Shown here in pieces: positions 5,227 through 63,971 of a DNA stretch of 64,000 nucleotides; within the stretch, counting starts at the first letter, position 1, and every line of letters begins with the position of its first letter. Both the position numbers and the translations under genes were made by a program. The stretch comes from a virus. The DNA is taken from IMG/VR virus record IMGVR_UViG_3300037310_000240, positions 806 through 64,805 of that record. The stretch is one strand, 5' to 3'. Under the pieces are notes generated by a model. It did not search any database and was not told the origin of the DNA. It saw nothing but the letters and a program-made list of their open reading frames with translations.

Positions 5227-7122
5227 GTGGGAGCGTCTGCCCGGCACGCCAAGGTCCTGCCGTCCCCGAGTACCGGGGCGGACCCGAACAAGGTCTACGG
5301 CGCCGACTGGAATCAGTCGGTTCAGGTTTTCGGGGTGGCCGAGCAGGCGGCGCTCGATGTCCTGTCGAACGCGCTTTCCGCATTGGAGGTGCGGGTCTCC
5401 GCGCTGAGCGGGGCGCCGAGCGGCGCATCGGTCACGTCGGACGAGTTGTCCATCGTGGCGGCCGGGCTGTCGGTGCGCGTGGATTCAACCGCGCAACAGC
5501 TGTCCCTGCTGTCGCAGCAGAATTCCGTGGACCACGCCTCGATCATGGCGGCGGTCAACGTGGTGTCGAACGCGCTGTCGGCCGAGACCGCCGCCCGCGC
5601 CGCCGCCGATAACACGCTGTCGAACAACCTGTCGGCGTTGTCGCAGCAGAACTCGGTCGATCACGTCTCGATCAGGAACCTGATTTCGATCCTGTCGCAA
5701 GCGGTGTCCGTGGCCGACACGGCTCTGTCAGTGCGCGTGGACTCGGTGGCGCAAGGGCTGTCCGCGCTGTCGAACGCAAACTCGGCTGCCCACGTCTCCC
5801 TGAACAACGCCGCCTCGAACGCCCTCTCGGTGGCGAACGCGGCGTCGCAGGCAGCCAGCGTGGCGGGCGCGAACGCGTCGAACGCGCTCTCGATCCTGAA
5901 CAACCTGTCGGCCCACGAATCCGCAGGCGGCGTGTCTGTCACCGGGCTTCAGGCGATCCTCGACGCGCTGTCTCGCAGGATCAGCGCGGAAGCCCCGCAG
6001 GGCGGCGGTGGCGGCAGCGTCACCAGCACGGAAGTCTCGGCGGGCGATGCGGCTGTGAGCTTGCAGGCGGCGAGCGCGTTGTCGCAGGCCATGTCGCTCA
6101 CGTCTGTTGCGCTGGCTGGGCTGTCGGCCAGAGTGGATTCCGTGGCGAACGGGGTGAGCATCGTCAGCAACGCAGCGTCGAACGCCCTGTCCGTGGCGAA
6201 CGCCGCATCGCAGGCTGCGTCGGTTGCAGATACGAAAGCCTCGAATGCTCAATCGGACTTGAACAGCGTCAGGTCGAACCTGCTGTCGCAGATCAGCCAG
6301 TTGAACAGCGTCCACTCGGCGCTGTCTCAGGCGAACTCTGCGGCGCACGTTTCGCTCAACAACGCGGCAAGCAACGCCCTGTCAGTAGCGAATGCCGCGA
6401 GCCAGGCGGCGAGCGTGGCGGACGTCAAGGGATCGACTGCGCTCTCGATCCTGAACAACCTGTCGGCGCATGAGTCTGCGGGCGCGACGTCCACGACCGG
6501 ATTACAGGCGATTCTGGATGCGCTCTCCCGCCGCATCAGCGCGGAAGCCCCGCAGGGTGGAGGTGGAGGATCGGTGACGAGCACCGAACTCTCGGCGGTG
6601 AGCGCGCAGGCCGCGAGCGCGATCAACGTGGTGTCGGCAGCGCTCGTCTCGGAGCAGGCTCTCACGCAGCGCCGTGTCCGCGCTGCCTCGATCACGGTGT
6701 CGGCAGCGACGATGACTAACATTCCGAGCCTGTCGATCTCGTGCGCGGCTGGCGGTGTGTACGAGATCGATGGATGGGTGGCCTACGAGGCGCTTACTTC
6801 CGGCGGCTTCGCGTTTGGTGCGTCCCTGCCCGCCCTCGGGCAACTCGGGGCCAACTTCATCGTTGACATGATGTCCCTTGGCGGTTCGCAAACTGGTGCG
6901 GGCCATAGCGCGGGAGTGGTTGCCATGTCTGCGGTTGCGGCAGGGCAGACGATCATGGCCTCGGCCTCCATCGCCACCATCAACTCCCGCCGCCATGTGA
7001 ATTTTCGCGGCGTGTTTGAGGCAAGCGCAGCAGGCACCTTCCAACTGATGGCGAAAACGTCGGTTGCTGGAGCGGGAATTCTCATCAAGGGCGGCTACAT
7101 CAAGGCTGTGAGGATCGTGTAA
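5227..7122 (+). CDS. Ser/Ala-rich repetitive fibre-like protein with C-terminal beta domain
   Basis: 631 aa; recurring SNALSVANAASQAASVA and a ~90-aa internal duplication; coiled-coil-like composition. Confidence 0.75.
   Translation: MGASARHAKVLPSPSTGADPNKVYGADWNQSVQVFGVAEQAALDVLSNALSALEVRVSALSGAPSGASVTSDELSIVAAGLSVRVDSTAQQLSLLSQQNSVDHASIMAAVNVVSNALSAETAARAAADNTLSNNLSALSQQNSVDHVSIRNLISILSQAVSVADTALSVRVDSVAQGLSALSNANSAAHVSLNNAASNALSVANAASQAASVAGANASNALSILNNLSAHESAGGVSVTGLQAILDALSRRISAEAPQGGGGGSVTSTEVSAGDAAVSLQAASALSQAMSLTSVALAGLSARVDSVANGVSIVSNAASNALSVANAASQAASVADTKASNAQSDLNSVRSNLLSQISQLNSVHSALSQANSAAHVSLNNAASNALSVANAASQAASVADVKGSTALSILNNLSAHESAGATSTTGLQAILDALSRRISAEAPQGGGGGSVTSTELSAVSAQAASAINVVSAALVSEQALTQRRVRAASITVSAATMTNIPSLSISCAAGGVYEIDGWVAYEALTSGGFAFGASLPALGQLGANFIVDMMSLGGSQTGAGHSAGVVAMSAVAAGQTIMASASIATINSRRHVNFRGVFEASAAGTFQLMAKTSVAGAGILIKGGYIKAVRIV
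5761..6590 (+). repeat. intragenic duplication of about 270 bp
   Basis: Block NSAAHVSLNNAASNALSV...LQAILDALSRRISAEAPQGGGGGSVTSTE occurs twice (~5761-6033 and ~6318-6590) with synonymous divergence. Confidence 0.85.
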
Positions 7123-7388
7123 TGGCGCACAGGGCGATCATTCGCGAAACACGCTTTGAGCCTTCTCCTTCCGTGGTCGGAGCGGTAGAGGCGACCTACA
7201 GCATCCTGTTCATCGACACCGTAGGGACTGCGCACGAGGCTGCGGAAGTGGTGCTGACCATCGACCTTTCGGGCACGATCAACTCCATCCAGAGCCAGAT
7301 CGCCAGCGCGATCCGGTCTCATGGCGCATCGCTCGGGCTGACGGTCGGGGTGAACGATGTGTTGCTCAACGATTTTGTAAAGGGGTAG
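7122..7388 (+). CDS. hypothetical protein
   Basis: Coupled via TAATG to the fibre gene; 88 aa. Confidence 0.7.
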   Translation: MAHRAIIRETRFEPSPSVVGAVEATYSILFIDTVGTAHEAAEVVLTIDLSGTINSIQSQIASAIRSHGASLGLTVGVNDVLLNDFVKG

Positions 7389-7390
7389 GA

Positions 7391-13262: not shown

Positions 13263-13273
13263 CGGGGCCTGTG

Positions 13274-13666
13274 ATGGCCAAGTACCTGCGCTCCAAGCTG
13301 AACGGCCACATCTACATCGACGACGGCCGGCTGGGGAAGATGGAACACATGGAGCCGTGCGATCCGCCGGCTGTTGTGGAGGTGCCCACAGCTGTTGGCA
13401 GCGAAAAACCGGGTCCGGCCACATCCCCCTACGTGGCCGACGCGGCAATTGCCAAGCGGGACAAGGCAATTGCCATGTCCACGGCCACGTCCACGCCGCA
13501 GGAATCAGAATCCGAATCCATTCACGTATCCGAGCGTGATCGTCTGGTGATGGAGTACACGCGCCTGATCGGGAAGCGTCCGCATCCCGACATGCGCACC
13601 GACAACATGAAGCGTTCGATCAAGAGGGCCATGCGCCGTGGCGGTGAAAGCCAAGCTAGTCATTGA
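13274..13666 (+). CDS. hypothetical protein, N-terminus paralogous to the 13032 ORF
   Basis: MAKYLRSKLNGHIY...MEPCD; C-terminal GKRPHPDM helical motif. Confidence 0.7.
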   Translation: MAKYLRSKLNGHIYIDDGRLGKMEHMEPCDPPAVVEVPTAVGSEKPGPATSPYVADAAIAKRDKAIAMSTATSTPQESESESIHVSERDRLVMEYTRLIGKRPHPDMRTDNMKRSIKRAMRRGGESQASH

Positions 13667-14366: not shown

Positions 14367-15002
14367 ATGGCGAACATCGACGCCTTGCTGCCGGACCTCA
14401 TGCCCTACTGCCCGGGAGTCCCCTACTCTCAGGCGGTGCGGGCGCTGCGCGACGCCACGATCAAGCTGTGCGCGCGCTCCCTGATCCACATCTACTTCGA
14501 CCCCGGGTCCTCTCCGGCGGCCAACACGACGCAGTTCACGGTGACGCCACCGTCCAACACGGCGCTCGTCCGTGTCATGGAGTTGTTCGTGGACAAGCGT
14601 CGCGTTGACCCGGTTCCTCCGCAACAGCTGTCGCGGTATTTCCCGAACGACTGGCCGCTCGCGGACGCCGGATACCCTCGCGGCTGGTATCAGGATGGCG
14701 CGACAACCGTGCGCGTGGTCCCCAAGACGGATGCGACCTACGCGTTCTCGGCCCTGATCGCCCTGCGCCCGTCGGATGCCGCGACCGTGATCGACGACTT
14801 CCTGTTTCAGGACTGGGCGACGGAAATCGTGAACGGCGCCCTTGCATCACTGCTTGCGATCCCGAGGCAGCCGTGGACCGACCCGAAAGAGGCTTCGCGC
14901 TACGAGAAGATGGCGACCGCCGGCATCAACAACGCCATCATCGAGGCGAATCGCGGGCGCGCGAACGCCCTGCTCGGCGTCCAACTCCCGTCAAGGCCGT
15001 GA
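14367..15002 (+). CDS. second adaptor/tail tubular protein
   Basis: LLPDLMPYCPG...IVNGALASLLAIPRQPW; position in tail module. Confidence 0.7.
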   Translation: MANIDALLPDLMPYCPGVPYSQAVRALRDATIKLCARSLIHIYFDPGSSPAANTTQFTVTPPSNTALVRVMELFVDKRRVDPVPPQQLSRYFPNDWPLADAGYPRGWYQDGATTVRVVPKTDATYAFSALIALRPSDAATVIDDFLFQDWATEIVNGALASLLAIPRQPWTDPKEASRYEKMATAGINNAIIEANRGRANALLGVQLPSRP

Positions 15003-15006
15003 CGAC

Positions 15007-44454: not shown

Positions 44455-44461
44455 GATTCGC

Positions 44462-44490: not shown

Positions 44491-44507
44491 CATCTTTCGA
44501 CAGCTGT

Positions 44508-48693: not shown

Positions 48694-48800
48694 ACTCTAC
48701 CCCACCCCACGGCGCTAAGCAACACCAATCAACAGTCGTAACACGAACGTAAGAACAGCTGTCGATTACGCTTGCGGCGTTTCGTTTGTTGGTCCATCAT
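48694..48800. promoter_or_regulatory. divergent promoter pair
   Basis: Leftward TTGCTT-17-TAGAGT (48722-48694), rightward TTGCGG-17-CATCAT (48772-48800); AACAGCTGT between them. Confidence 0.55.
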
Positions 48801-48841: not shown

Positions 48842-49672
48842 GTGTTCAGCTGGATCAAGGTCGAATGCACCACCCCTGACAAGCCCGAGGTTCACGCGAT
48901 CGCGACCCTTCTCGGGATCCCTCCAGAGCAGGTCGTCGGGCACCTCATTCGATTGTGGGTGTGGGCCGACCAGCAGTCCGTCACCGGCACCATCGTCGCC
49001 GCTCCAGACCCCACCGAGACCCCGAAGCCAGACCCCGAAAAAGGTGTAACGCAGTCGCCGTATACGTTTGCGAAACAAAATCATGTCATCGATGACGTTG
49101 CGCGCATGCCCGGGTTCGCGAGGGCGATGAAAACAGTCGGGTGGTTGAAAGAGAGCAGCGGAAAAATCACCTTCCCGGGGTTTGCACTGCACAACGGGAA
49201 AACAGCGAAGCAGCGGGCACTTACGTACAGGCGCATCAAGGAATTCCGTGCCGCACAAAAGCAAAAAAAGACCTCAACAGCTGTGGAAAACGGTAACGCT
49301 GTTGGCGTATACGTTTCGCAACAAGAGAAAGAGAAAGAATATAGTACCCCTATAGTCCCCACGGCGAGCGCGAAGCGCGTCCTGAAGATCGACCCCGGAC
49401 TGCTGTTCAGGTTCGACACCTTCTGGAACGCGTACCCCCGCAAGGTGGCGAAGCCCGCCGCGCTGCGCGCGTGGGTCCAGTTGAAGCCCGACACCAACCT
49501 GACGACCAAGATCATCGACTCCGTGAACGCGCACTGCCACACCGAGCAGTGGCTACGCGATTCCGGCCAGTACATCCCACACCCAGCCACCTTCCTGAAC
49601 CAGCGCCGCTTCGAGGATGCGCCGGCCGCGCCGGCACGGCCCGGGGGTGATCCGTTCAAGGGGGCAACATGA
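48842..49672 (+). CDS. replication initiator (O/DnaT-like)
   Basis: WIKV..TPDKPEV, LIRLWVWAD, FDTFWNAYPRKVAK and YIPHPATFLNQRRFED. Confidence 0.8.
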   Translation: MFSWIKVECTTPDKPEVHAIATLLGIPPEQVVGHLIRLWVWADQQSVTGTIVAAPDPTETPKPDPEKGVTQSPYTFAKQNHVIDDVARMPGFARAMKTVGWLKESSGKITFPGFALHNGKTAKQRALTYRRIKEFRAAQKQKKTSTAVENGNAVGVYVSQQEKEKEYSTPIVPTASAKRVLKIDPGLLFRFDTFWNAYPRKVAKPAALRAWVQLKPDTNLTTKIIDSVNAHCHTEQWLRDSGQYIPHPATFLNQRRFEDAPAAPARPGGDPFKGAT

Positions 49673-50073: not shown

Positions 50074-51016
50074 CGAGATTGACCTGTCGGCCTTCGAGGC
50101 CGAGGAAGGCGGCGCCAAGGTGCGCCCAGCCTCCTACTGGGCCGACAAGGTGATCGAGCGCATGTACCCGCCGGCCGGCTCCACGCTGGCCGGCGCCTGC
50201 CTGCCGTGGGGCAAGACGCACGGGAACATCCGGCTGCGTCCGGGCGAGGTGTCGCTGTGGCCCGGCATCAACGGGCACGGCAAGTCGATCCTGACCTCGC
50301 ACGTGGCGCTGTCGTTGTGCTGCCACGGTGAGAGGGTGTTGATCGCGTCTATGGAAATGAAGCCCGAGGCCACGCTGGCGCGCATGTCTCGACAGCTGTC
50401 GGGGCACCAAGACCCGGCGATCAAGATGATTCGCTCGTTCCTGTCGTGGAGCGATGATCGCCTGTGGTTGTACGATCAGCTTGGCACGGTGCATCCGATG
50501 CGCATGGCGGCGGTGGTGCGCTACGGCATCGAGAAGCTGGGCATCACCCACTTCTTCATCGACTCGTTGATGAAGGTGGTCCACGCCGAGGACGACTACA
50601 ACGCGCAGAAGTCGTTCGTGGACAACCTGTGCGTGATCGCGCGCGACAACGGTGTGCATGTACACCTGATCCACCACAGCAAGAAACTCTCGGACGAGTT
50701 CTCTCCGCCCGGCAAGTTCGACGCGAAGGGAACCGGCGCGATCACCGACCTCGTGGACAACGTGTTCACCACGTGGCGGAACAAGCGCAAGGAAGAAAAG
50801 GTGGCGAGAGGGGACGCCGTGGACAAGGGCGAGCCGGATGCGATGGTGATCTGCGACAAGCAGCGCCACGGCGAGTGGGAGGGCCGCATCGCCCTGTGGT
50901 ATCACAAGGAATCGATGCAGTACCTGCCGCAGCCGGCGTCGTTGCCGGCGCAGTACTCTCAGCTGATGGACAGTGGATCCGAGGCCCCCGCTGTTATTGA
51001 GGGGGTGGAACTGTGA
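50051..51016 (+). CDS. DnaB-like SF4 replicative helicase
   Basis: GINGHGKS Walker A, SMEM, FFIDSL, GTGAITDLVDN and KQRHG. Confidence 0.9.
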   Translation: MATIIVPDEIDLSAFEAEEGGAKVRPASYWADKVIERMYPPAGSTLAGACLPWGKTHGNIRLRPGEVSLWPGINGHGKSILTSHVALSLCCHGERVLIASMEMKPEATLARMSRQLSGHQDPAIKMIRSFLSWSDDRLWLYDQLGTVHPMRMAAVVRYGIEKLGITHFFIDSLMKVVHAEDDYNAQKSFVDNLCVIARDNGVHVHLIHHSKKLSDEFSPPGKFDAKGTGAITDLVDNVFTTWRNKRKEEKVARGDAVDKGEPDAMVICDKQRHGEWEGRIALWYHKESMQYLPQPASLPAQYSQLMDSGSEAPAVIEGVEL

Positions 51017-51234
51017 CCACGAGGGAGAACAACAGGCGGATGTTCCCAGCAACAGCTGTTTTCGTGGACGAAATGCGCCGGGTCTTTGGCGAGGGAGTCC
51101 GGGTGATCCGGGCAACCGAGGGTGGCCGCACGATCGGAGAGCCGGACGACGCGGTGTACGCGCAGGCAACACCGATGGCGTCGTTCAACAAGGGAGGGAA
51201 GGATGGCCGACCAAACAGCAGACGACGTAGTTGA
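51013..51234 (+). CDS. small hypothetical protein
   Basis: GTGA overlap; FVDEMRRVFG. Confidence 0.6.
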   Translation: MTTRENNRRMFPATAVFVDEMRRVFGEGVRVIRATEGGRTIGEPDDAVYAQATPMASFNKGGKDGRPNSRRRS

Positions 51235-52575: not shown

Positions 52576-52910
52576 GCATCGAAATTGCAAACCCGATGGA
52601 GTCCAGTTACCTTGCCCGGGTGAAGATGCTGCCGTGCGTGTTGTGCGCCGAGCGCATCGGCAGGGAGACGATGTTCTCGGAGGCGCACCACTTGCTCGGC
52701 GAAAACCACAAGCGCGTCAGTCACTACCTCACGATCCCGTTGTGCGAGGAACATCATCGCGGCAAGACCGGGGTGCATGGGGTCGGCGGTCGGCGCGGAT
52801 TCGAGCGTCGATGGAAAACCACCGAGCAACAGCTGTTGGGGCTGACGATCGAAATGCTGGAGCGCATGCGTCATGGCCTCCCGCCGTGGCTGGGGAAACT
52901 CAGTGACTGA
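52572..52910 (+). CDS. Ref/DUF968-like HNH-fold nuclease
   Basis: PCVLC...EAHH...TIPLCEEHH..GVH. Confidence 0.75.
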   Translation: MSIEIANPMESSYLARVKMLPCVLCAERIGRETMFSEAHHLLGENHKRVSHYLTIPLCEEHHRGKTGVHGVGGRRGFERRWKTTEQQLLGLTIEMLERMRHGLPPWLGKLSD

Positions 52911-53387: not shown

Positions 53388-53803
53388 TGGGGTTGAAGTC
53401 GAGGCGGAAGGGAAAGGTCTACGAGCGGGAGGTGTGCGCCGAGGTGAACGCTGCGCTGCGCTTGAAGGGAGGAAACGAGGTGGGGAGGAATCTCGGGCAG
53501 GAGAGGGACAGCGGGAATGACATCACGCTGACGAAGCCCGAGCCGATGAAGGGGAGGTACGTAATCGAGGCGAAGCGGCGGCAACAGCTGTCGTCGCTGT
53601 ACAGGTGGCTCGATCAAGCGCGCGAGGCAGCGCGCTCGCCGAGCGATACGCCGATCGTGGTGACGCGACAGGACAACAGGGAGAGCATCGCCATCCTGCC
53701 GTTCACCGAGTTGCTGCGCCTGCTGGCGGACGAGAGGGTCGCCGCCAACATCATCAATACAATTCCACCTGACGCGCCGCCATCAGTGACATCCTCGCCA
53801 TGA
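53387..53803 (+). CDS. Holliday junction resolvase-like PD-(D/E)xK nuclease
   Basis: SRRKGKVYERE, GNDI, IEAKRR and WLDQA. Confidence 0.8.
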   Translation: MGLKSRRKGKVYEREVCAEVNAALRLKGGNEVGRNLGQERDSGNDITLTKPEPMKGRYVIEAKRRQQLSSLYRWLDQAREAARSPSDTPIVVTRQDNRESIAILPFTELLRLLADERVAANIINTIPPDAPPSVTSSP

Positions 53804-54563
53804 CGTTCGCCTTGGCGGGGTCGTCCGACCACATCCACGGAACCCGCGTGTCGATCGCGTAGAGCGTGTAGTGCTTGCCTGACAGCTGTTCTGGCGGGAT
53901 GGCCTTGCTGTCGGCCCAGTCGATGAAGTCCAGTTCCATCCCCCATGCCGCGAACCTGCACACGCCGGGAAGGTTGGCTGCGATCTTCTGCATGTCGGGG
54001 CGCAGGTTCTGATCCCCGATGTTCGGCCAGATGTCGATCGCCGCGAGGTCGAAGTGCTGCTGGTCTCGGAACAGAAGCATGTCGCTGTTCACCACGGAAA
54101 TCTTTTTGCGAACGCTCTCCGGCCATTCGCGGAGGTTGGTCTTGAAGATGTTCAGCACATCGAAGCTGTTGTCCACCACCACCACCTCGCTCACGTTGTG
54201 CTTGCGCGCTACGTTGTAGGCCAGCACCCCGATGCCAGCGCCGCCGATCAACACCCGGCCACTCGCCGCCATTGAGTGATGCGCCTGCGACTCCAGTTCC
54301 ATCGGCGTGACCGACATCCACACTTTCTTGCCGTGCATGAGGGTCCAGTTCGGCGTGTTGTCCAGCACCTGCAAGCCGCCGAAGTAGCCTCGGATCATGG
54401 GCGGCATGCGCCGCTTGGTCAACGACCACGTGCCGCCATCGCCGTCGCCGATCTTCATTTCCTTGAGCGGCGGGATTCGCAGCGAGCGGAACGGCGACAC
54501 CGCCCGGGACAGCTGTTCGTATTCCTTTTTTCCTTCGTACAAGATGTCAATAAAGCTACTCAC
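53754..54563 (-). CDS. SAM-dependent methyltransferase (spermidine-synthase-like)
   Basis: WMS.TPME, VLIGGAGIG, VVVVD and FDLAAIDIW. Confidence 0.75.
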   Translation of the reverse strand: MSSFIDILYEGKKEYEQLSRAVSPFRSLRIPPLKEMKIGDGDGGTWSLTKRRMPPMIRGYFGGLQVLDNTPNWTLMHGKKVWMSVTPMELESQAHHSMAASGRVLIGGAGIGVLAYNVARKHNVSEVVVVDNSFDVLNIFKTNLREWPESVRKKISVVNSDMLLFRDQQHFDLAAIDIWPNIGDQNLRPDMQKIAANLPGVCRFAAWGMELDFIDWADSKAIPPEQLSGKHYTLYAIDTRVPWMWSDDPAKANVMARMSLMAARQVELY

Positions 54564-54954: not shown

Positions 54955-55271
54955 CACGCCGCCTTCGCCACGTTGCGAGCGACGCACCGCACCGAGACGA
55001 ACTCTGTCGCGATCGTGTTGGCGCGGATGAATTGCGGCGACAGCTTCTGCCGCACCGCTGCGATGTCGAGCGATTCGCGGACGCCCTTCGTCACGCTGAC
55101 GCGGAACAGCTGTCCCTCGCCCACGTAGGCCGGGCCATCCTTGCCGCCCTTGGCCAGACCTTCCCCGGCGATCAGGCGCTGCTTGAGAGCATCCCGTTTC
55201 GCTTCGAGGTCGGCGATTTGTGCGGCCAGCAGGCCGTACTCGTCGATGATGTTGCTGTCGATCACTTTCAT
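54954..55271 (-). CDS. hypothetical protein
   Basis: SD ACAGGAGG; IDEYGLL.AQIADLE coiled coil. Confidence 0.65.
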   Translation of the reverse strand: MKVIDSNIIDEYGLLAAQIADLEAKRDALKQRLIAGEGLAKGGKDGPAYVGEGQLFRVSVTKGVRESLDIAAVRQKLSPQFIRANTIATEFVSVRCVARNVAKAA

Positions 55272-56108: not shown

Positions 56109-56444
56109 CTAATCACAGCTGTTGGAGCGGAAGATGCGGACGAACAACTTGTCGCCGATCATTTTTTCGCTCTCGACGCGGGTGCCGTACCCGATCGGGT
56201 GGTACTCGTCGAAGATTTCCTTTTGCCGCAGCTTCACGGCGCCGGCGTCTCCGTACAGGTCGATGTGCGTGAACGCCACGCCGCCCGAGACGTTCTCGAC
56301 CACGTTCGCGCGCAACTCCGCAATCTTGGCGAACACCTTGTAGTGCCAGCCAAGCTTCGCGTACACCACGATGCCGCTGCGGTGGTATTCGTCGCGAAAA
56401 TTGGCATGCGCGAGCGCGATCTTGCTGTTGTACCTGTCGTCCAT
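56109..56444 (-). CDS. hypothetical protein
   Basis: YHPIGYGT...RSNSCD. Confidence 0.65.
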   Translation of the reverse strand: MDDRYNSKIALAHANFRDEYHRSGIVVYAKLGWHYKVFAKIAELRANVVENVSGGVAFTHIDLYGDAGAVKLRQKEIFDEYHPIGYGTRVESEKMIGDKLFVRIFRSNSCD

Positions 56445-56622: not shown

Positions 56623-56734
56623 TGCGTACCTCCGTCGTTGGTTGAGAAAAAATCCTGCCGGGTACTGCGCGGCCCCATGCTTCCGCGCACCCCGGAGGTA
56701 TCCCTCGGGTCGATCGGGACACCCACAGCTGTTG

Positions 56735-59014
56735 CTACATCACCCGGCGCTCACCCTGTTTCGACAACTCCCGCGCCAGCTTGCCAAGCACCTCGACGTT
56801 CATTTCCGAAAGGCTCGGCACCTCGACGCTGTTCGGGTAGGCGCCGCTGCAATCGGATTGAATGCCGAACCCGATCACCGTTACGTCCAGCTTCTCTGCC
56901 ACCTTGCACAGGTTTTCCACCGAATCGATGTCGCCCATGCCATCGGTCAGCACGAGAACGATGCGCCGTTTCTCGGGCCTCGACGCCATGTCGCGCACGA
57001 TCGAGTACAGCGCCGCGTAATCCGGCGTCCCGCCGTGCGCCGCATACCCCACCATCTTGAACGCATCGACGCGCTGGTGCATGCGCTGCTCGAAGTTTTT
57101 CACCACGAGTAGATCTGCGGGTTCTGCCATCGATACCGAAGTCGCGGCGCCCATGCCATTGAGGCCAAGCATGCCGCCAACGTACTGACGCCGGTCGTGT
57201 CCCTGCTCGGTTGTGTTCTGGAACACAGTGACCTCGACCGGGACCCGAGCGTTTTCGCAGATGCGCGCCAGTTCCAGCGCCAGTACGCCGCACACCTCGA
57301 TGCGCGTTTCTTTGTTGCTAGACCCACAGTAGCTGCCGCCGCGCGAAGTCATGGACGAGGAGCCATCGATCAGGATCGAAACGGCGGTATCAAGCCCCTC
57401 GGTTTCCCAGCGACGCTTGAACACCTGCTCGCTTCCGGCCATCGCCTTCGAGGAACGCTTTGACTCGAAGCGCCCGGAGAGGCGACCGCCATCCCAGCCG
57501 CAACGCTCGGGAGCGTGGAGCAGGCGCAACAGCTGTGCGCGCAAGGCTCCGGCCTTCTCCACTCTCGCAACATCTTCGAGAGTGCAGTACCCCAAGCTGC
57601 CGTAGCTTTCGATCGGCTTGCGAATGCACGGTAGCGCGTTTTTCAGGCCGATCTTGAGTTCGGCGCGTTTGTTGATGCGCTTCGCCGCCTTCTCGATGTT
57701 CGGCTCCACGCTGGCCTGCTGGCTGGGCATCTTGCCCCATTCGCCCTTCTCGAAGGGCGAGCCGGGAGAGTACCCGTTGCCATCGCCGTTGCCATCGCCG
57801 CTTTCGTCGCCGCTGTCCGTGGACAGCTGTTCCGATCCGGCGCTGCCTTCACCTTCGCCATCACCTTCACCTTCGCCATCACCTTCACCTTCGCCTTCAC
57901 CTTCGCCTTCACCTTCGCCTTCGCCTTCGCCTTCGCCTTCGCTTTCGCCTTCGCCTTCACCTTCGCCTTCGTCGTTGCTCGGGGCGGCGGACTTGCCAGA
58001 CTCGTCCCCTTGCTCGGACTTGAACCGACCGTGCCCGGTGTCGTATGGGTCCGCGTCACCGTCGCTGTTGTCGGATTCGGAGAGGTCGTTTTCCCAATCG
58101 TCGGCGTCGTCGCCTGCATCGCCGGGCGCATCTTCACCGCCCGGGTCGCGCTCGAAGCCTTCGTCTTGGTCGCCGAAGTCGGAGCCGCCGCTTTCCTCGC
58201 CGGCATCATCGCCTTCGCTGTCGCTGGAACCGGACTGCCCCTGTTCGTCGGAATCGCCTGCATCGCCGGGCTGCTGCGGCGCGCTGCCTTGGCCTTGGCC
58301 TTGGTCGGGCTGCGGCTGCGGTTGTTCGTTCGCCTTCAGCATGTCGTACAGCTTGCGCGCCAGTGCGATTGACTCCACGCTGCCATCACGGCCCAGCGGC
58401 AGCTTTTTCATTTCCTCGATTGCGTACTCGTAGAACGCCCGGGGTTCGGGCGCGCAGCGATCGAGAAAGTTTGCCGCCGCCGGAAGGTCGCATCCGTACA
58501 GCACCACGCGCCCGATGATCGCGAGCGAGAACGCGACGTTGCCCTTGTCGTTCGGGGTCCACTCGGGAGCGAGCCGCAGCATGTAGGACGCCAGCTGCGC
58601 GAACGCAGTGCGCGCGCCACGAGCGCGCCCGGACCTGACCACGCATGTCTCCATGCGCGCATCCTCGATGCCGTTGTAGATCGTGAACAACGCGTCGTTC
58701 ATGCCGGCGTTCGCAACCGCCTCGTTGTTCGTGTACAGGACATGCCCTGTCTCGTGCAGCGTGTACGCGGCGAACAGGTCCGCCTCTTTGCGCGTCAGGA
58801 GCGCGGTGTCCGCGATCGCCGGGTAATTGATGCGCGCCGAGACGTACTGCTTGTCGCCGCGCACTTCGTGGTCCCACAGCGCGAACGCCTTGGCGCCGCT
58901 CCATGTGCAGACCAGCGGAGCGCGGTTCCAGCTTGACATCTTCTCGGCGGACGAGAACAGCTGTTTTGCCGCCGCCCTTTCTACGCCTTGCTTGAGTACG
59001 AATGCCGGGATCAT
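56735..59014 (-). CDS. CobT-like vWA-domain protein with N-terminal HExxH and acidic linker
   Basis: HETGH..NGIEDAR; D/E/G-rich linker; MIDAS motifs DGSSSM, GGTP and LTDG. Confidence 0.85.
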   Translation of the reverse strand: MIPAFVLKQGVERAAAKQLFSSAEKMSSWNRAPLVCTWSGAKAFALWDHEVRGDKQYVSARINYPAIADTALLTRKEADLFAAYTLHETGHVLYTNNEAVANAGMNDALFTIYNGIEDARMETCVVRSGRARGARTAFAQLASYMLRLAPEWTPNDKGNVAFSLAIIGRVVLYGCDLPAAANFLDRCAPEPRAFYEYAIEEMKKLPLGRDGSVESIALARKLYDMLKANEQPQPQPDQGQGQGSAPQQPGDAGDSDEQGQSGSSDSEGDDAGEESGGSDFGDQDEGFERDPGGEDAPGDAGDDADDWENDLSESDNSDGDADPYDTGHGRFKSEQGDESGKSAAPSNDEGEGEGEGESEGEGEGEGEGEGEGEGEGEGDGEGEGDGEGEGSAGSEQLSTDSGDESGDGNGDGNGYSPGSPFEKGEWGKMPSQQASVEPNIEKAAKRINKRAELKIGLKNALPCIRKPIESYGSLGYCTLEDVARVEKAGALRAQLLRLLHAPERCGWDGGRLSGRFESKRSSKAMAGSEQVFKRRWETEGLDTAVSILIDGSSSMTSRGGSYCGSSNKETRIEVCGVLALELARICENARVPVEVTVFQNTTEQGHDRRQYVGGMLGLNGMGAATSVSMAEPADLLVVKNFEQRMHQRVDAFKMVGYAAHGGTPDYAALYSIVRDMASRPEKRRIVLVLTDGMGDIDSVENLCKVAEKLDVTVIGFGIQSDCSGAYPNSVEVPSLSEMNVEVLGKLARELSKQGERRVM
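57846..57971 (-). repeat. 6-bp tandem repeat encoding a (GE)n tract
   Basis: About 20 units of CCTTCG/CCTTCA/CCATCA on the + strand. Confidence 0.9.
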
Positions 59015-59094: not shown

Positions 59095-60390
59095 CTACGA
59101 CTGTTGCGCTACGCCATCGACCTTTGCGGCTTCCATCGCGGCCTGCGCTTCCTTGGCCTCGGCGGTCGCCATGTACTCGGCCAGCTTGCCCTTAGAGGCG
59201 GCGCGGTACACGCCCACATCGACGTTTTGCACGAACAGCTGTTGCATTTCCTCGCGGCTCGCGGTGTCGCACTTGTTCGCGATCGCGGCCTCGAACGCCT
59301 TGCGAGGGGCGACCCCGGCGTGGATCAGCTTCGCCCATGCCATCGCCTGACGCAGCCCGGGCGGGTCCGTGAGGGTGCCGCCGACAGCCGCGTTGCGCGC
59401 CACGTGCATGAATCTGACCACCTCGGTCGCTAGTTGTTCGTTACAGCCGGTGCGATCCTTGATGATGCCAATTTCGACTTCCTCGGGCGGGTAGTCGAAG
59501 TACATCATCACCTCGAATCGGTCTACGGTGGACGAGTCCATTTCGCGCACCACGTACTTCCCGCTCGGGTCCCCGGTGCCGTTGCTGTTGTCCGCAGCCG
59601 CGAACACAACGCCCTCGGCGCGCTTCACCACCTGCCCGGTTTCCACGATCGTCGCCTTGCCACCGCGCTCCAGAATCGGGTTCAGCGCGATGGTGTACTC
59701 GGGACGCGAACGGCAGAATTCATCGAGCAGGATGATCGCCCCGGCGCGCTGCATGCCGCGCAGGATTGCACCGTCCTGCCACACCGTGCTGCCGCCGCGC
59801 ATGCGCTCGCCCCCGAGAAACTCGTACTTCTCGGCGCTCGCGTCGAAGTTGACGCGGATGAAGGCGCGGCCCAGCCGGGCGCAGAGGTTTTTCACGAACT
59901 CCGTCTTGCCCGTTCCCTTCGGACCGCAGAGCCACATGTTGTCGCCGCCGGAAATAGCGGCCATCGCCAGTTGCAGCAGGTCTTTCTCGAACCTGTACAG
60001 CGGGTCCACCTCGGGGGCCTCGGGATCGTCCCACACGTACGCCATGATGCGGTTCCCCTCGGCGTCTTTGAGGTCGATGCCGAAAACCTCTTTGCAGGTT
60101 TTCTTCTCGATCACCTTCGGGACGAAGGCGGGTTGCGCGAATGCCGTGCTGTCGAGCAGGCCCACGGCCGGAGCGGCGATCGGCTGCTGCTCGGGCGCGG
60201 TCATGCCCGTAGGCATGGTGATGCCCACCACTTCATTGACCGCCGATTCCAGCGCCTGCGCGTTGGGATAGCTGGCCACGAGGGACACTAGGTCCCCCTT
60301 GCTCAATCGGGCGTAGTCCCCGATCTTGATGCCGAGCCTGCGGCCCACAGCCACGAGGTTCAGCTTGCTCAGCGAATTGAGATTCGCCAT
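59095..60390 (-). CDS. CobS/CbbQ/MoxR-like AAA+ ATPase
   Basis: GPKGTGKT, ILLDE, AADNSNGTG and DRF; partner of the vWA gene. Confidence 0.9.
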   Translation of the reverse strand: MANLNSLSKLNLVAVGRRLGIKIGDYARLSKGDLVSLVASYPNAQALESAVNEVVGITMPTGMTAPEQQPIAAPAVGLLDSTAFAQPAFVPKVIEKKTCKEVFGIDLKDAEGNRIMAYVWDDPEAPEVDPLYRFEKDLLQLAMAAISGGDNMWLCGPKGTGKTEFVKNLCARLGRAFIRVNFDASAEKYEFLGGERMRGGSTVWQDGAILRGMQRAGAIILLDEFCRSRPEYTIALNPILERGGKATIVETGQVVKRAEGVVFAAADNSNGTGDPSGKYVVREMDSSTVDRFEVMMYFDYPPEEVEIGIIKDRTGCNEQLATEVVRFMHVARNAAVGGTLTDPPGLRQAMAWAKLIHAGVAPRKAFEAAIANKCDTASREEMQQLFVQNVDVGVYRAASKGKLAEYMATAEAKEAQAAMEAAKVDGVAQQS

Positions 60391-60487: not shown

Positions 60488-61024
60488 CTAGTCGCAGATG
60501 CCGGTGCCGCAGCGAACGATCGCCACCTTGCGCGCCGCGTCATACGAGACGAGGGACGAGCCGGTTGACCAGCGCAGCGCGCCGTAGGATGAAGTCGGCG
60601 GGTCGAGCAGCGCCGCGCCAGCGGACAGCTGTTCCTGCGTCGGGTCGCCGCTGTACGGCACCTCGAACTGATCGCTGTCGCCGTAGGCATACATTTCCTT
60701 GCTGCCATCGATGTACTTGCGACCGTCCCAGTTGAAGCCGCAGGCGTCGAGGATCGCCTTGCACTGCGCCTCGTACGCAGCCCGGGCGGCGGCTTTCTTC
60801 GCCGCCTTCGCCGCGCGCTCGTACTCGGAATCCTCGAACAGCGCCGCCTTTTGGGCGATCGGCACCACGATGTTGACCATGCCGATTTCCACTGCGCAGC
60901 GATGGTGATACGTGCCCCAGCGTACGTCCGATGGCGACTTGTGCGCGATGCCCTCGCCTGCGGGAACGTAGTCTCGGCACACGCGGCACTTGCCGCCGTA
61001 CCTGTTCCACATTGCGTTTGCCAT
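60488..61024 (-). CDS. hypothetical early protein
   Basis: SD GGAGG; NRYGGKCRVC...H..C. Confidence 0.65.
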   Translation of the reverse strand: MANAMWNRYGGKCRVCRDYVPAGEGIAHKSPSDVRWGTYHHRCAVEIGMVNIVVPIAQKAALFEDSEYERAAKAAKKAAARAAYEAQCKAILDACGFNWDGRKYIDGSKEMYAYGDSDQFEVPYSGDPTQEQLSAGAALLDPPTSSYGALRWSTGSSLVSYDAARKVAIVRCGTGICD

Positions 61025-61344: not shown

Positions 61345-61400
61345 ATACTACGCTGTTGTACAGCTGTTTCACACAACTTTTTTGTAACAAATTGTAACAA
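61345..61400 (-). promoter_or_regulatory. putative leftward early promoter
   Basis: -10 TAGTAT, weak -35, ACAGCTGT in the spacer, AT-rich upstream TTGTAACAA direct repeat. Confidence 0.45.
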
Positions 61401-61458
61401 CGGAGAATTCAGGCAGAATTCAATCCCTTGCGAACGACTGTTGGGGGAGAACAAGAAC

Positions 61459-62148: not shown

Positions 62149-62307
62149 CGGGGCGGACTTGGGCTGCCCGGCGGCTACGGTCGCCGGGTCTACATCGCAC
62201 AGCGCGACGAGGGGGCGCGGGGTGCATTCACAGTCACACGGACAGCTGGCCGCACAGCTGTTCAGGCCACAGCTGTAACGACAGAAGCGTTACGTGGGGG
62301 AGGGAGC

Positions 62308-62685
62308 ATGAGCGAACCGCAAGCACAGCCGGCGCCAAAGCGCCCGGCGCCGAAGATCACCGCCGACACCCTGCAGCAGGGCGCGGTCCACAAGGCGTTC
62401 CCGCCTGCGAGGTTCGCGCTGAAGCGCGCCGGCAGCATCGCAGGTGGCTTGTACGCCATCGACGCCCACGGCCGCCTCTGCGCCGCCGAGTGGGGCGAGA
62501 ACAGCGCCGCCGAGGTGTGGGCCTTTCGCCGTGTGCTGCGCGACTTCCTGACCAAGGCGATCGAGGACGAAGAGCAGCGCATCAAGGTCGCGGCGGAGGA
62601 TGCTGGCAAGGCGATTGCAAAGGCTTCGGAGGCGGCAAAGCTGGAGGCACCGGAGGGAGCCGGAGTGAATGTCACAACCTCTTGA
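62308..62685 (+). CDS. hypothetical protein
   Basis: SD GGAGG; 125 aa. Confidence 0.6.
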   Translation: MSEPQAQPAPKRPAPKITADTLQQGAVHKAFPPARFALKRAGSIAGGLYAIDAHGRLCAAEWGENSAAEVWAFRRVLRDFLTKAIEDEEQRIKVAAEDAGKAIAKASEAAKLEAPEGAGVNVTTS

Positions 62686-63142
62686 AATCGTTAAGGAATT
62701 CCCGCCGTTCTACGATTGGGTCGGCGTCAAGATGGGCGTCACTCCACCGTACGGCGTGATCTTCACCTACGGCGAGCGCATCTACAATCCGCACGGCGTG
62801 GAGGTTCACCCGGCGCTGATGGCGCACGAGCGCGTCCACAGCCGGCGGCAGCTTGCCACCGACGGAGGCCCGGATGCGTGGTGGGAACGCTACCTGATCG
62901 ACGATGCGTACCGCTTCGACGAGGAAGCGGTCGCCCACCGTGCGGAGTACCTCGCCTTCTGCTCGCGGGAGCATGACCCAAAGCGCCGGGCGCAGGCGCT
63001 GAGCGTGATCGCAGGCAGGCTGGCCTCGCCGCTGTACGGCCGCATCGCCACGCCTCACCGGGCGCGCCGCGCCGTACTCGGACTGCCAGACGAGGCACCG
63101 CGTAACGCGCCCAGCGTTACACCGGAGGTGCTGCATGGCTGA
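62669..63142 (+). CDS. HExxH metallopeptidase-like protein
   Basis: AHERVHSRRQ...YRFDEEAVAH. Confidence 0.6.
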   Translation: MSQPLEIVKEFPPFYDWVGVKMGVTPPYGVIFTYGERIYNPHGVEVHPALMAHERVHSRRQLATDGGPDAWWERYLIDDAYRFDEEAVAHRAEYLAFCSREHDPKRRAQALSVIAGRLASPLYGRIATPHRARRAVLGLPDEAPRNAPSVTPEVLHG

Positions 63143-63971
63143 CGCAGCGAGAACAGCTGTGCCCAAGAAGCCGAAGCGGGTCGAGGCGCCCGAGGAACGC
63201 GCCGCGCGATGGAAGCGGAAGGAAATCGAAGCTCGCGACAACCTCGTCGCCCTGAAGCGCGCCTACGCCGAGGCGCAGCGCATCATCGCCGCAGAGCGGC
63301 TACAGCGCCGCATGTTCCGCATCACCCAGCATGCCGAGTGGCTGAAGGCCGGAAAGCCCGCCGACATCAGCGACGAAACGCTGTACAGCATCTTCGCCCT
63401 TCATGGGGACGGAGAGGCTTTGGCCGAAGCGGTGGAAGCCCACGGGATCACGTTCGGGATGTTCTGGTGGGTGTTGCATGGGGAGAGGGCGGGGACGGAA
63501 GAGGGTAAAAAAAGGCTGGCCGCCCTCGCGCGCGCTCGTGAAGCGTACGCTCACTCTTGCGTCTCGCGGCTGGAGACAGTTGTCGAGGCCGAACCCGACC
63601 CAGCGAAGGCCAAAGTCCTGTCCGATGTCCTGCGGTTCATGGCCGCGAAGGCGCTGCCGGCGATCTACGGCGAGCGCGCCGAGGCCGCGAATCCGGGGCG
63701 AATCACCCTGCAATTCAACCTCGCACCCACAGCTGTTGAGAAAGTCGTGGGTAGCGGCGATGCAAGCCCTTCATCCGACAAGCAAATCGGACACGCAGCA
63801 GCGGATTCAGTATCCGCTGCTCTAGCGAAGAGCCGCATGGGAGGCCGATTGCCCCCGGCTGAGAGCGAATTGGCCGGACCGATCGACCCTGACCGGACCG
63901 AACAACCGGCCTCGACCACCCCCACCCCACCCCCCGGCTTGGACCCGGGTGGCGACCCCCGGGGGCCTTGA
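63135..63971 (+). CDS. terminase small subunit-like protein
   Basis: HTH-like region then ARARE...AKVLSDVLRFMAAK..P..YGER; first part of the late operon; SD GGAGG. Confidence 0.65.
   Translation: MADAARTAVPKKPKRVEAPEERAARWKRKEIEARDNLVALKRAYAEAQRIIAAERLQRRMFRITQHAEWLKAGKPADISDETLYSIFALHGDGEALAEAVEAHGITFGMFWWVLHGERAGTEEGKKRLAALARAREAYAHSCVSRLETVVEAEPDPAKAKVLSDVLRFMAAKALPAIYGERAEAANPGRITLQFNLAPTAVEKVVGSGDASPSSDKQIGHAAADSVSAALAKSRMGGRLPPAESELAGPIDPDRTEQPASTTPTPPPGLDPGGDPRGP

What the first reader, a model, noticed from the sequence alone, without database searches (positions are those of the whole stretch)
5496..63736. Palindrome ACAGCTGT (consensus AACAGCTGTT) occurs at least 40 times across the genome
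Seen by manual scan, starts: 5496, 13388, 14624, 17934, 18503, 19917, 22114, 22578, 26294, 26500, 29426, 30524, 32621, 35497, 36331, 38974, 39490, 44500, 46084, 48755, 49277, 50392, 51052, 52829, 53584, 53882, 54509, 55106, 56115, 56725, 57529, 57823, 58957, 59235, 60625, 61360, 62254, 62269, 63153, 63729. In 37 of 40 there is a flanking A or T extending the palindrome. A rough base-composition estimate at ~65% GC gives about one copy. Sites occur in different reading frames and force codons rare here (ACA GCT GTT), which suggests selection at the DNA level. They are denser in the early/replication third (23 in ~20 kb versus 17 in ~44 kb) and lie at three putative promoter regions. Inference: a dispersed protein-binding site (stoperator-like silencing, nucleoid or partition site, or methylation/self-marking signal) whose cognate protein is unidentified.
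Basis: partly seen in the sequence, partly recalled or inferred. Interest (0 to 1): 0.8.

Follow-up and report, generated by a model that had tools for sequence, protein, structure and literature searches.

The report
Iterated ACAGCTGT palindrome across phage genome
This phage and a scattered set of its relatives have written one 8-10 letter DNA palindrome into their genes about once per 1.5 kb, against codon preference, so some protein that is still unknown most likely reads this word on phage DNA.

Summary
ACAGCTGT occurs 40 times at the listed coordinates, against about 1-2 expected, and it is the commonest 8-mer of this 64.8-kb phage genome. Shuffles that keep the protein sequences give about 2-3 coding sites instead of 33. 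Of 46 peptide contexts that could carry the word synonymously, 33 do.

The word is also iterated in 6 other related metagenomic phage records, at 13-43 copies each, and in one MAG contig (34). Eight relatives have 0-5 copies.

Three of those eight instead carry the one-transition forms ACAACTGT/ACAGTTGT. One of them has no CAGCTG at all. These forms sit at orthologous, conserved positions, and the two forms toggle between close relatives.

A second half-site, CTGT, lies 9-12 bp from the core about ten times more often than background. Seven of the 40 sites lie in the 3.8% of the window that is non-coding, and several related genomes carry pairs in control regions.

I read this as an array of sites for a two-fold-symmetric, cooperatively binding dsDNA reader. 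A methylation or repair drive, a Chi-like signal and a coding by-product all fit worse.

No gene is common to all carriers.

The scan noted the same word earlier on another phage genome (e1-3262388). Function remains unproven.

The parts
5496..5503 (.). site, frame xxA|CAG|CTG|Txx (Q-L) in gene 5227-7122(+)
13388..13395 (.). site, frame ACA|GCT|GTx (T-A-V) in 13112-13666(+)
14624..14631 (.). site, Q-L frame in 14367-15002(+)
17934..17941 (.). site, T-A-V frame in tail-fibre-like gene 16644-19592(+)
18503..18510 (.). site, Q-L frame in 16644-19592(+)
19917..19924 (.). site, T-A-V frame in 19596-20588(+)
22114..22121 (.). site, Q-L frame in 21674-22507(+)
22578..22585 (.). site, Q-L frame in 22504-23172(+)
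26294..26301 (.). site, T-A-V frame in 26144-26587(+)
26500..26507 (.). site, Q-L frame in 26144-26587(+)
29426..29433 (.). site, Q-L frame in 28788-30179(+)
30524..30531 (.). site, Q-L frame of ORF 30183-30563(+); frame assigned from local GC3 and uncertain
32621..32628 (.). site, T-A-V frame in giant polyvalent-protein gene (frame of 29609..40570)
35497..35504 (.). site, Q-L frame in giant gene
36331..36338 (.). site, Q-L frame in giant gene
38974..38981 (.). site, Q-L frame in giant gene
39490..39497 (.). site, Q-L frame in giant gene
44500..44507 (.). intergenic site. Read leftward it lies 9 nt upstream of TTGCGT-17 nt-TATGAT, ahead of the Ro60/TROVE gene
   Evidence: the promoter is my reading and the consensus scan did not flag it
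46084..46091 (.). site, Q-L frame in 45995-46306(-)
48755..48762 (.). intergenic site in the divergent region between the exonuclease and replication operons, 9 nt upstream of TTGCGG-17 nt-CATCAT (rightward)
49277..49284 (.). site, T-A-V frame, inside the AT-rich linker of the replication-initiator gene 48842-49672(+); candidate origin
50392..50399 (.). site, Q-L frame in DnaB-like gene 50045-51016(+)
51052..51059 (.). intergenic site (51017-51121)
52829..52836 (.). site, Q-L frame in 52572-52910(+)
53584..53591 (.). site, Q-L frame in PD-(D/E)xK resolvase-like gene 53327-53803(+)
53882..53889 (.). site, Q-L frame in methyltransferase-like gene 53754-54563(-)
54509..54516 (.). site, Q-L frame in 53754-54563(-)
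55106..55113 (.). site, Q-L frame in 54954-55628(-)
56115..56122 (.). site, the only one in frame xAC|AGC|TGT, at the last codons of 56109-56444(-)
56725..56732 (.). intergenic site (56623-56734)
57529..57536 (.). site, Q-L frame in CobT-like VWA gene 56735-59014(-)
57823..57830 (.). site, Q-L frame in the VWA gene
58957..58964 (.). site, Q-L frame in the VWA gene; the same alignment column carries the word in G005
59235..59242 (.). site, Q-L frame in MoxR/CobS-like AAA gene 59095-60390(-)
60625..60632 (.). site, Q-L frame in 60488-61087(-)
61360..61367 (.). intergenic site in the 370-bp divergent region between 60488-61087(-) and the Q-like gene 61459-62148(+)
62242..62249 (.). degenerate copy ACAGCTGG, 12 bp before the next site
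62254..62261 (.). intergenic site between the Q-like gene and the first late gene (62308)
62269..62276 (.). intergenic site, 15 bp after the previous one
63153..63160 (.). site, T-A-V frame at the start of the small-terminase-like gene 63135-63971(+)
63729..63736 (.). site, T-A-V frame in 63135-63971(+)

Best explanation
ACAGCTGT, with the fuller form S-A-ACAGCTGT-T-S, is a word kept by selection on the DNA itself. It serves as a high-affinity site for a two-fold-symmetric, sequence-specific double-strand DNA-binding protein that binds cooperatively along one face of the helix.

Shown: the excess, its independence of protein coding, its conservation and turnover in related phages, the tolerated one-transition variants, the phased auxiliary half-sites, and the enrichment in control regions.

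Inferred: that a protein dimer or oligomer reads the word. I also infer that occupancy of many sites is what is selected, as a genome-wide label of phage DNA with operator-like action at early promoters.

No gene is shared by all carriers, so I put about 55% on a host-encoded reader and about 45% on a small or fast-evolving phage protein below BLAST reach.
For: 1. Excess: 40 sites against 0.6-1.8 expected, and against 7.5-9.0 in protein-preserving codon shuffles, of which 6 are fixed intergenic sites.

2. Saturation: 33 of 46 synonymously compatible peptide contexts carry the word. That is 24 of 31 x-Q-L-[FLSYCW], 8 of 13 T-A-V and 1 of 2 [NHDY]-S-C.

3. The same word is the top over-represented 8-mer in G001 (43 copies), G002 (22), G003 (26, at 52% GC), G005 (22 in 32 kb), G015 (13 in 37 kb), G004 contig 15 (34) and G019 (36 in 45 kb). 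The reversed-word control gives 0-3 per virus record.

4. Conservation with turnover: in the CobT-like orthologue one column carries the word in 5 of 10 genomes, although 4-fold third positions are only 35-50% identical. Most other sites are lineage-specific.

5. Variants: G007 has no CAGCTG at all but 26 ACAACTGT/ACAGTTGT against 2.6 expected, and no ACAATTGT. G006 has 14 and G011 has 13. At two orthologous sites G006 and G011 carry opposite variants.

6. Auxiliary half-site: CTGT starts 5-8 nt after the core in 21, 26, 17 and 15 of 532 flanks, against a background of 2.1 per offset. ACAG at offsets 3-4 occurs 15 and 13 times against 2.2. The four neighbouring offsets are not locked to a reading frame.

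7. Seven of 40 sites lie in the 3.8% of the window that is intergenic (P = 7e-4). Pairs or triplets lie in intergenic control regions in G000, G002, G004 contig 15, G005 and G007. Two G000 sites sit 9 nt upstream of TTGCGK-17 nt-YATSAT.

8. The flank differs in one lineage: CACAGCTGTG in G004 contig 15.
Against: No reader was found. Pfam and PHROGs show no HTH or RHH regulator among the 70-odd proteins scanned.

No protein family, down to 28-aa frames, is shared by G000 and G019 yet absent from the motif-free sister G013.

The two promoter assignments are my own reading. The consensus scan found only 1 promoter-like site in 20 kb, against 2.8 expected, and it is not one of these.

Near-saturation of synonymous opportunities fits a 'more is better' genome signal or a mutational drive as well as it fits regulation.

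The sample is about 11 carriers. Seven of them (G001, G002, G003, G006, G007, G011, G015) form one gene-content clade, so they are not independent.

Nothing here shows binding.
Confidence: 0.55

Rival explanations
1. HIP-type origin. A methyltransferase acting on the inner CAGCTG, together with a methyl-directed very-short-patch-like repair, continually converts near-matches into the word. This would be a mutational drive with no reader function.
For: The word is an 8-bp palindrome with a 6-bp restriction-type core. It occurs in all frames and nearly saturates the synonymous opportunities. HIP1 is the closest described phenomenon (PMC5861425, abstract read). The methyltransferase link for HIP1 is recalled from Elhai 2015, which I did not see.
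Against: G006, G007 and G011 keep the word under purifying selection as ACAACTGT/ACAGTTGT, which lack CAGCTG. I found no DNA-methyltransferase signature: the only candidate, 53754-54563(-), shows no DPPY, NPPY or SPPY motif by eye, scores weakly on Pfam MTS (24 bits), and has no relative in any of the 14 records first compared (G019 was fetched later and not compared for this gene). A drive does not explain the phased half-sites or the clusters in control regions. None of 301 sampled bacterial genomes shows phage-like density of the 10-mer. For HIP1 itself, Xu et al. argue for selection and against repair (abstract).
Confidence: 0.1
2. The word is a site for a conserved host protein, and the phage gains by recruiting or titrating it. 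It could act as a DNA sponge or as a recruitment code for replication, transcription or protection. This overlaps the best explanation and differs only in who encodes the reader.
For: Carriers with almost no shared non-structural genes keep the same 10-bp word. G000 and G019 share only a DnaB-like protein and the C-terminal domain of the initiator. Relatives without the word exist.
Against: G013 and G019 share late and tail genes at 73-98% identity, yet G013's early half has no copy. This needs a recent module swap. The non-phage part of MAG G004 holds only about 17 copies in 3.1 Mb, against 54 for the reversed word over the whole MAG. However, binning of a phage contig with a MAG is not reliable evidence of host.
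Confidence: 0.3
3. The word is a Chi-like signal: two opposed copies of a host RecBCD/AddAB recognition word (GCTGTT) overlapped into a palindrome, protecting replicating phage DNA from either end.
For: The half-site GCTGTT is about 2-fold enriched outside full sites in carriers and in G010: 60 against 34 expected in G000 and 107 against 52 in G001. Chi-rich lambdoid phages are in print (PMC12315714, listing and start of abstract only). G000 encodes its own exonuclease, annealing protein and SSB.
Against: The palindrome is enriched 20-60 fold but the half-site only 2-fold, although isolated half-sites would be far easier to encode. Isolated half-sites show no strand bias, 30 against 30 in G000 and 53 against 54 in G001. 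Recognition on single strands gives no reason for 9-12 bp phasing. There is no enrichment in the 301 sampled genomes.
Confidence: 0.05
4. The excess is a by-product of coding, codon usage or the genome's strong avoidance of other palindromes.
For: 24 of 33 coding sites use the favoured codons CAG CTG. The genome lacks 14 hexamer palindromes that are each expected about 9 times or more.
Against: Protein-preserving shuffles give about 2-3 coding sites against 33. Eight of 13 T-A-V tripeptides use ACA GCT, and each of those codons makes up 8% of its family. Seven sites are non-coding. Relatives of similar GC have 0-5 copies.
Confidence: 0.01

Closest known systems
HIP1 (GCGATCGC) and alternate highly iterated palindromes of cyanobacteria
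   Same: Both are 8-bp palindromes with a restriction-type 6-bp core, 15-300 fold over-represented, present in all frames and between genes, and conserved between genomes.
   Different: HIP1 fills host chromosomes. This word is confined to phage genomes, and no excess was seen in 301 sampled bacterial genomes. Here the CAGCTG core can be broken by one transition without loss of conservation, and phased half-sites accompany the core.
Stoperators of Cluster A mycobacteriophages (L5 gp71-type repressor)
   Same: Both are dozens of repressor-type sites spread through a temperate phage genome, many inside genes (PMC9283540, PMC6550527; listing and start of abstract only).
   Different: Stoperators are asymmetric, bound by a monomer, and oriented with transcription (the orientation point is recalled). 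This word is a palindrome, no cognate repressor is known, and the same word is shared by phages with different gene sets.
Dispersed palindromic operators of global regulators: phiC31 conserved inverted repeats, P1 C1 operators, RK2 KorA/KorB sites (all recalled, none seen in a call)
   Same: All are a palindromic word repeated at many loci of one replicon, including promoters, and read by one dimeric regulator.
   Different: Those number about 7-20 sites and are mostly intergenic. Here there are 22-43 sites in the complete records, mostly intragenic, written against codon preference.
Chi-rich lambdoid phages
   Same: In both, a short word is iterated through phage genomes by selection (PMC12315714, listing only).
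   Different: Chi is asymmetric, polar and abundant in the host. This word is palindromic, shows no polarity in its half-sites, and is not abundant in the sampled bacteria.
Iterated AGTACT palindrome of jumbo coliphages
   Different: The word, the phage group and the hosts all differ. I did not check those notes.

Membership tests
HIP-like iterated palindrome | 8-bp palindrome over-represented 15-fold or more genome-wide | tested here: met
   40 sites against 0.6-1.8 expected, and it is the most frequent 8-mer
HIP-like iterated palindrome | Sites conserved between genomes beyond neutral expectation | tested here: met
   Column 842 of the CobT-like alignment carries the word in 5 of 10 genomes at saturated synonymous divergence. 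Between G013 and G019, 4 of 6 late-region sites are shared.
HIP-like iterated palindrome | A cognate methyltransferase for the inner hexamer is encoded in the same genome (feature recalled from Elhai 2015) | tested here: inconclusive
   No N6/N4 or C5 DNA-methyltransferase family was hit. The methyltransferase-like proteins at 53754-54563 and 7391-8740 lack a DNA-methyltransferase signature. The host is unknown.
HIP-like iterated palindrome | Fills the cellular chromosome | tested here: not met
   The 10-mer occurs 0-26 times per genome in 301 sampled genomes, similar to the reversed control. The top three genomes show dispersed single copies.
Stoperator / dispersed-operator system | Many sites through the genome, including inside genes | tested here: met
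   33 coding and 7 intergenic sites
Stoperator / dispersed-operator system | Asymmetric site oriented with transcription | tested here: not met
   The site is a perfect palindrome. The asymmetric variants in G007 occur 15 times on one strand and 11 on the other, with no link to coding strand by a rough call.
Stoperator / dispersed-operator system | A cognate repressor is encoded by the phage | tested here: inconclusive
   No recognisable repressor was found. No family is common to all carriers.
Chi-like hotspot | Asymmetric word with strand polarity | tested here: not met
   Isolated GCTGTT occurs 30 times on each strand in G000, and 53 against 54 in G001
Chi-like hotspot | Abundant in the host chromosome | tested here: inconclusive
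   The host is unknown. There is no excess of the 10-mer in 301 sampled genomes. The half-site itself was not counted there.
Restriction-modification target | Word avoided by phages exposed to the enzyme | tested here: not met
   The word is enriched here, and CAGCTG outside the word occurs 46 times, about as expected. In contrast, relatives G007, G009 and G010 have 0 CAGCTG, so the hexamer is probably restricted in their hosts.
Lambda-Q-type antiterminator (for the protein 61459-62148) | Sequence or fold membership | tested here: inconclusive
   There are weak PHROG hits to 'anti-termination protein Q-like' (E = 0.07 for G000, 2e-5 to 1e-4 for relatives). The nearest Atlas cluster carries PF03589 on 15% of its members. 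The AlphaFold model has mean pLDDT 54, so no fold search was made.

The most novel reading that the evidence does not exclude
The word is a phage-side 'address label' read by a host protein that none of these phages encodes. Unrelated early-gene modules have each been rewritten with the same 10-bp palindrome because it recruits or soaks up that host factor. The label is caught in a tug-of-war with CAGCTG-type restriction, which forces it to toggle between ACAACTGT and ACAGTTGT. That would be a DNA-level phage-host interface of a kind not described.
Probability: 0.25. Interest if true: 0.85.

Novelty: new variant of a known kind. Interest (0 to 1): 0.66.

Why it matters
Iterated palindromes such as HIP1 have lacked a function for about thirty years. 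It also comes with natural controls:
- sister genomes without the word (G013 against G019);
- lineages that had to break the CAGCTG core yet kept the rest;
- a lineage with a different flank.

If a reader is found, it would show how a phage labels or organises its own DNA, and how that label co-evolves with host restriction. The word is also a practical marker for module history in mosaic phage genomes.

Tried and rejected
Close relatives. Megablast of 25 kb against isolated phages found nothing. The best portal match among isolates is 34%. Single-protein locus scans found none, and relatives came only from profile scans.

Reader by gene content. tblastn of 79 G000 proteins against 14 records, ORF clustering and a search of stop-to-stop frames of 28 aa or more gave no family present in all carriers.
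- The CobS/CobT-like pair is present in 9 of 11 carriers, but also in motif-free G010, and it is absent from G019.
- The Q-like zinc finger is present in 7 of 11 carriers. Three proviruses with 27-29% relatives of it have 0-1 copies.
- The GNAT protein (27052-27510) and the Hjc-like resolvase (53327-53803) correlate partly but are not DNA readers by family.

Operator-regulator adjacency. Sixteen viral contigs have two AACAGCTGTT within 30 bp. Fifteen of these are local repeats or longer palindromes with no shared neighbouring protein (apart from two near-identical isolate-derived contigs), and one is a new carrier, G019.

Regular spacing. The coefficient of variation of spacings is 0.8-1.6, so there is no regularity.

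Promoter and terminator consensus scan: uninformative.

Rfam and tRNA scans of the window: no hit.

Structure of the Q-like protein: mean pLDDT 54, so no fold search was run.

Sequencing runs. Two DNA runs, kept as contigs and possibly the source of this DNA, hold the stretch, and no RNA holder is listed. Contigs cannot show molecule ends.

Literature. Searches for 'ACAGCTGT'+'phage', 'highly iterated palindrome'+'phage', 'overrepresented/palindrome/bacteriophage genome/binding site' and 'AACAGCTGTT' returned no paper describing this word in phages. Supplements were not seen.

Host. It was not identified.

Other iterated words. Motif-free relatives have only weak ones: G008 CACCGGTG 9, G009 CAGACCCTG 8, G012 CCTCGAGG 9, G013 GTACACGT 10, G010 ACGAACTG 25 against 5 expected. 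I did not pursue them.

Full report
WHAT IS THERE. The window is bases 806-64805 of a one-contig, 64,805-bp phage genome. ACAGCTGT occurs 40 times, exactly at the listed coordinates. Dinucleotide shuffles give a mean of 0.62 and a maximum of 3. Markov models of order 0-3 expect 0.7-1.8 sites, and the word is the most frequent 8-mer in a genome of 64% GC. Of 86 CAGCTG hexamers, 40 are flanked A...T. The other 46 match the hexamer's own expectation. The fuller consensus is S-A-ACAGCTGT-T-S. Position -1 is A in 19, G in 11, C in 9 and T in 1. Position +8 is T in 27. Positions -2 and +9 are G or C in 35 of 40.

THE GENOME. It looks like a temperate podovirus. Genes identified:
- large terminase 877-2343 and portal 2347-4983;
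- internal virion protein 14842-16644 and tail-fibre-like genes;
- a giant polyvalent protein ending at 40570, with DUF7178, zeta-toxin-like, MuF_C, GNAT and ART-PolyVal domains;
- integrase 44772-45614(-) and a Ro60/TROVE gene 42729-44129(-);
- YqaJ exonuclease, Sak annealing protein and SSB;
- a replication initiator 48842-49672 and a DnaB-like protein 50045-51016;
- a MoxR/CobS-like AAA protein 59095-60390(-) and a CobT-like VWA protein 56735-59014(-);
- a zinc-finger protein 61459-62148(+) with weak Q-antiterminator likeness;
- a small-terminase-like gene 63135-63971.

No isolated phage is close: megablast found nothing, and the best portal identity is 34%.

SELECTION IS ON THE DNA. With a curated gene list, 24 sites are read xxA|CAG|CTG|Txx (Q-L), 8 are read ACA|GCT|GTx (T-A-V), 1 is read xAC|AGC|TGT, and 7 are intergenic. 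The frame of the giant ORF was corrected, and ORF 61080-61568(-) was dropped as spurious. Shuffling synonymous codons while keeping every protein gives 7.5-9.0 sites, of which 6 are unshuffled intergenic sites, with a maximum of 13. ACA and GCT are each 8% of their codon families, yet 8 of 13 T-A-V tripeptides are written ACA GCT GTN. Of all 46 peptide contexts that could carry the word by synonymous change alone, 33 do.

The lower density in head genes is mostly a lack of such contexts: 7 in 5192 aa, against 23 in 8898 aa in tail genes and 16 in 6837 aa in early genes. In tail and early genes, Q-L is flanked by compatible residues more often than in head genes (16 of 35 and 13 of 27, against 2 of 21). 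This suggests that amino-acid changes were also recruited where proteins tolerate them (this last step is inference).

RELATIVES. Portal relatives at 50-58% identity are numerous in metagenomes. Profile scans fetched 80 viral loci and 4 MAG loci.

Whole-record counts in carriers:
- G001: 43 in 58.5 kb;
- G002: 22 in 59.6 kb;
- G003: 26 in 56.4 kb;
- G005: 22 in 32.3 kb;
- G015: 13 in 37.1 kb;
- MAG G004: 51 copies, of which 34 lie on the 61-kb phage contig. The reversed-word control for the whole MAG is 54.

Counts in relatives without the excess: G007, G008, G009, G010 and G011 have 0, G012 has 1, G006 has 4 and G013 has 5.

A pattern scan for two 10-mers within 30 bp found one more carrier, G019, with 36 copies in 45.5 kb. 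The other 15 hits were local repeats. In every carrier the word is the top over-represented 8-mer. G004 contig 15 prefers C flanks (CACAGCTGTG, counted 22 times over both strands, i.e. 11 sites).

VARIANTS THAT BREAK THE HEXAMER. G007 has no CAGCTG at all but 26 ACAACTGT/ACAGTTGT against 2.6 expected, and AACAACTGTT is its top 10-mer. G006 has 14 and G011 has 13. Among the 16 possible ACA-NN-TGT words, only GC, or AC and GT, are iterated. The double transition AT is absent in G007 and G011 and occurs once in G006.

In the CobT-like orthologue one column reads as follows:
- GAA CAG CTG TCC in G001 and G003;
- CAA CAA CTG TCG in G006 and G011;
- GAA CAG TTG TCG in G007.

The 4-fold third positions between these genomes are only 35-50% identical. 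So the variant is also under purifying selection. At two orthologous sites G006 and G011 carry opposite variants, which implies passage through the perfect palindrome or the double mutant. Relatives G009 and G010 also have 0 CAGCTG. My inference is that CAGCTG is restricted in some hosts of this phage group, and that the word is kept as close to the palindrome as that allows.

ARCHITECTURE. I examined 532 flanks of sites from 10 genomes; flanks with a second full site within 70 nt were dropped, 24 of 556. CTGT starts 5, 6, 7 and 8 nt after the core 21, 26, 17 and 15 times, against a background of 2.1 per offset. That places it 9-12 bp from the core's own CTGT, in the same orientation. ACAG at offsets 3-4 occurs 15 and 13 times against 2.2. 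The four adjacent offsets exclude a reading-frame artefact. The apparent TTG peak at offset 9 (24 of 558 flanks) is this CTGTTG. The half-site GCTGTT is about 2-fold enriched outside full sites in carriers and in G010, without strand bias.

WHERE THE SITES ARE. Seven of 40 sites lie in the 3.8% of the window that is intergenic (P = 7e-4):
- 44500 and 48755 each lie 9 nt upstream of TTGCGK-17 nt-YATSAT. This is my reading; one search did not flag them.
- 61360 lies in the divergent region ahead of the Q-like gene.
- 62254 and 62269, plus a degenerate copy at 62242, lie ahead of the late operon.
- 51052 and 56725 are the other two.
- Site 49277 lies in the AT-rich linker of the initiator gene, a usual place for an origin (inference).

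Pairs or triplets in control regions recur in G002, G004 contig 15, G005 and G007. Spacing overall is not regular.

WHO READS IT. The CobS/CobT-like pair is present in 9 of 11 carriers and in 1 of 5 motif-free records. The Q-like zinc finger is present in 7 of 11 carriers and in 0 of 5 motif-free records.

G019 settles the matter. Its late half is 73-98% identical to motif-free G013. Its early half and giant gene (0-24 kb) hold 30 of its 36 sites. It has neither gene set, although its early region is complete by synteny with G013. G000 and G019 share only the DnaB-like protein and the C-terminal 73 residues of the initiator. No frame of 28 aa or more is shared by them and absent from G013. Three proviruses with distant Q-like relatives have 0-1 copies.

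The 10-mer is not enriched in 301 sampled genomes of the class of MAG G014: 0-26 copies per genome, against 0-69 for the reversed control. In the three highest genomes the copies are scattered.

MODULES. Between G013 and G019, 4 of 6 late-region sites are shared. Eight alignable early-region sites of G019 correspond to non-sites in G013 with 2-8 mismatches.

COMPARISON WITH WHAT IS KNOWN. The nearest described thing is HIP1 (abstract of PMC5861425). It is the same kind of word with the same signs of selection and the same ignorance of function. This one, however, is phage-only, it tolerates loss of its hexamer core, and it has phased half-sites. Dispersed-operator systems such as stoperators share the idea of many sites for one regulator, but they are asymmetric and come with a known repressor. 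Chi-type and methylation-drive readings fit worse. The scan reported the same word earlier in another phage genome (e1-3262388).

- the core-breaking variants and their toggling;
- the C-flank lineage;
- the auxiliary half-site;
- the saturation count;
- the G013/G019 contrast;
- the exclusion of the proposed readers.

VERDICT. This is a real, selected, lineage-spanning DNA word, most likely a binding-site array for a symmetric dsDNA reader (0.55). Its function is unproven. Against the searched literature it is a new variant of a known kind.

Noticed in passing
whole window: Extreme avoidance of restriction-type hexamer palindromes. CCGCGG occurs 0 times against 52 expected, CTCGAG 0/41, GTCGAC 0/36, TGATCA 0/26, TTCGAA 0/19, ACCGGT 0/17, GGGCCC 0/17, TCCGGA 0/15, GAGCTC 0/13, GGTACC 0/12, AGGCCT 0/11, AACGTT 0/10.5, GTGCAC 0/10, ATGCAT 0/9, AGCGCT 1/27, GACGTC 2/25, CCATGG 1/15.
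   Followed up: partly
related records G007, G009, G010 (L103-L105, L109-L116): These relatives contain no CAGCTG at all in 55-64 kb. That suggests PvuII-type restriction in their hosts.
   Followed up: partly
window 61459-62148 (+): This is a 229-aa protein with two CxxCxG zinc knuckles, placed just before the late operon. It has weak likeness to Q antiterminators. The overlapping ORF 61080-61568(-) is spurious.
   Followed up: partly
window 44462-44490 (- strand): The putative promoter after site 44500 contains TTGC-N6-TTGC across its -35, the layout I recall for lambda CII-activated promoters. No CII-like gene was identified.
   Followed up: no
window 42729-44507: A Ro60/TROVE+vWA gene is preceded by a 378-bp gene-free stretch. 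Rfam gave no hit at gathering threshold and no tRNA was found.
   Followed up: no
window 49240-49350: An AT-rich stretch (about 60% AT) lies inside the replication-initiator gene. It holds one full site, with half-sites AACAG (49132, 49201) to one side and CTGTT (49299, 49403) to the other. It is a candidate origin.
   Followed up: no
window 30566-40570: A giant polyvalent protein has DUF7178, zeta-toxin-like, MuF_C, GNAT and ART-PolyVal domains. In G019 the corresponding 3767-aa gene holds 17 of that record's 36 sites.
   Followed up: partly
window 7391-8740: An MptE/Maf-like domain is fused to a class-I methyltransferase, between the portal and scaffold genes.
   Followed up: no
G013 (L120-L122) and G019 (L148-L150): These two are mosaic sisters. 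Their late genes are 73-98% identical, while their early genes are 35-76% identical. Only G019's early half carries the word.
   Followed up: yes
L128 (Rhizobium phage RHph_TM3_14A, 30.5 kb): RAGGTAAC is iterated: GAGGTAAC 16 against 1.2 expected, AAGGTAAC 15 against 1.6. It may be a start-associated element and is unrelated to this finding.
   Followed up: no
G010 (L113-L116): The asymmetric word ACGAACTG occurs 25 times against 5 expected. I did not resolve whether it is a codon effect or a motif.
   Followed up: no
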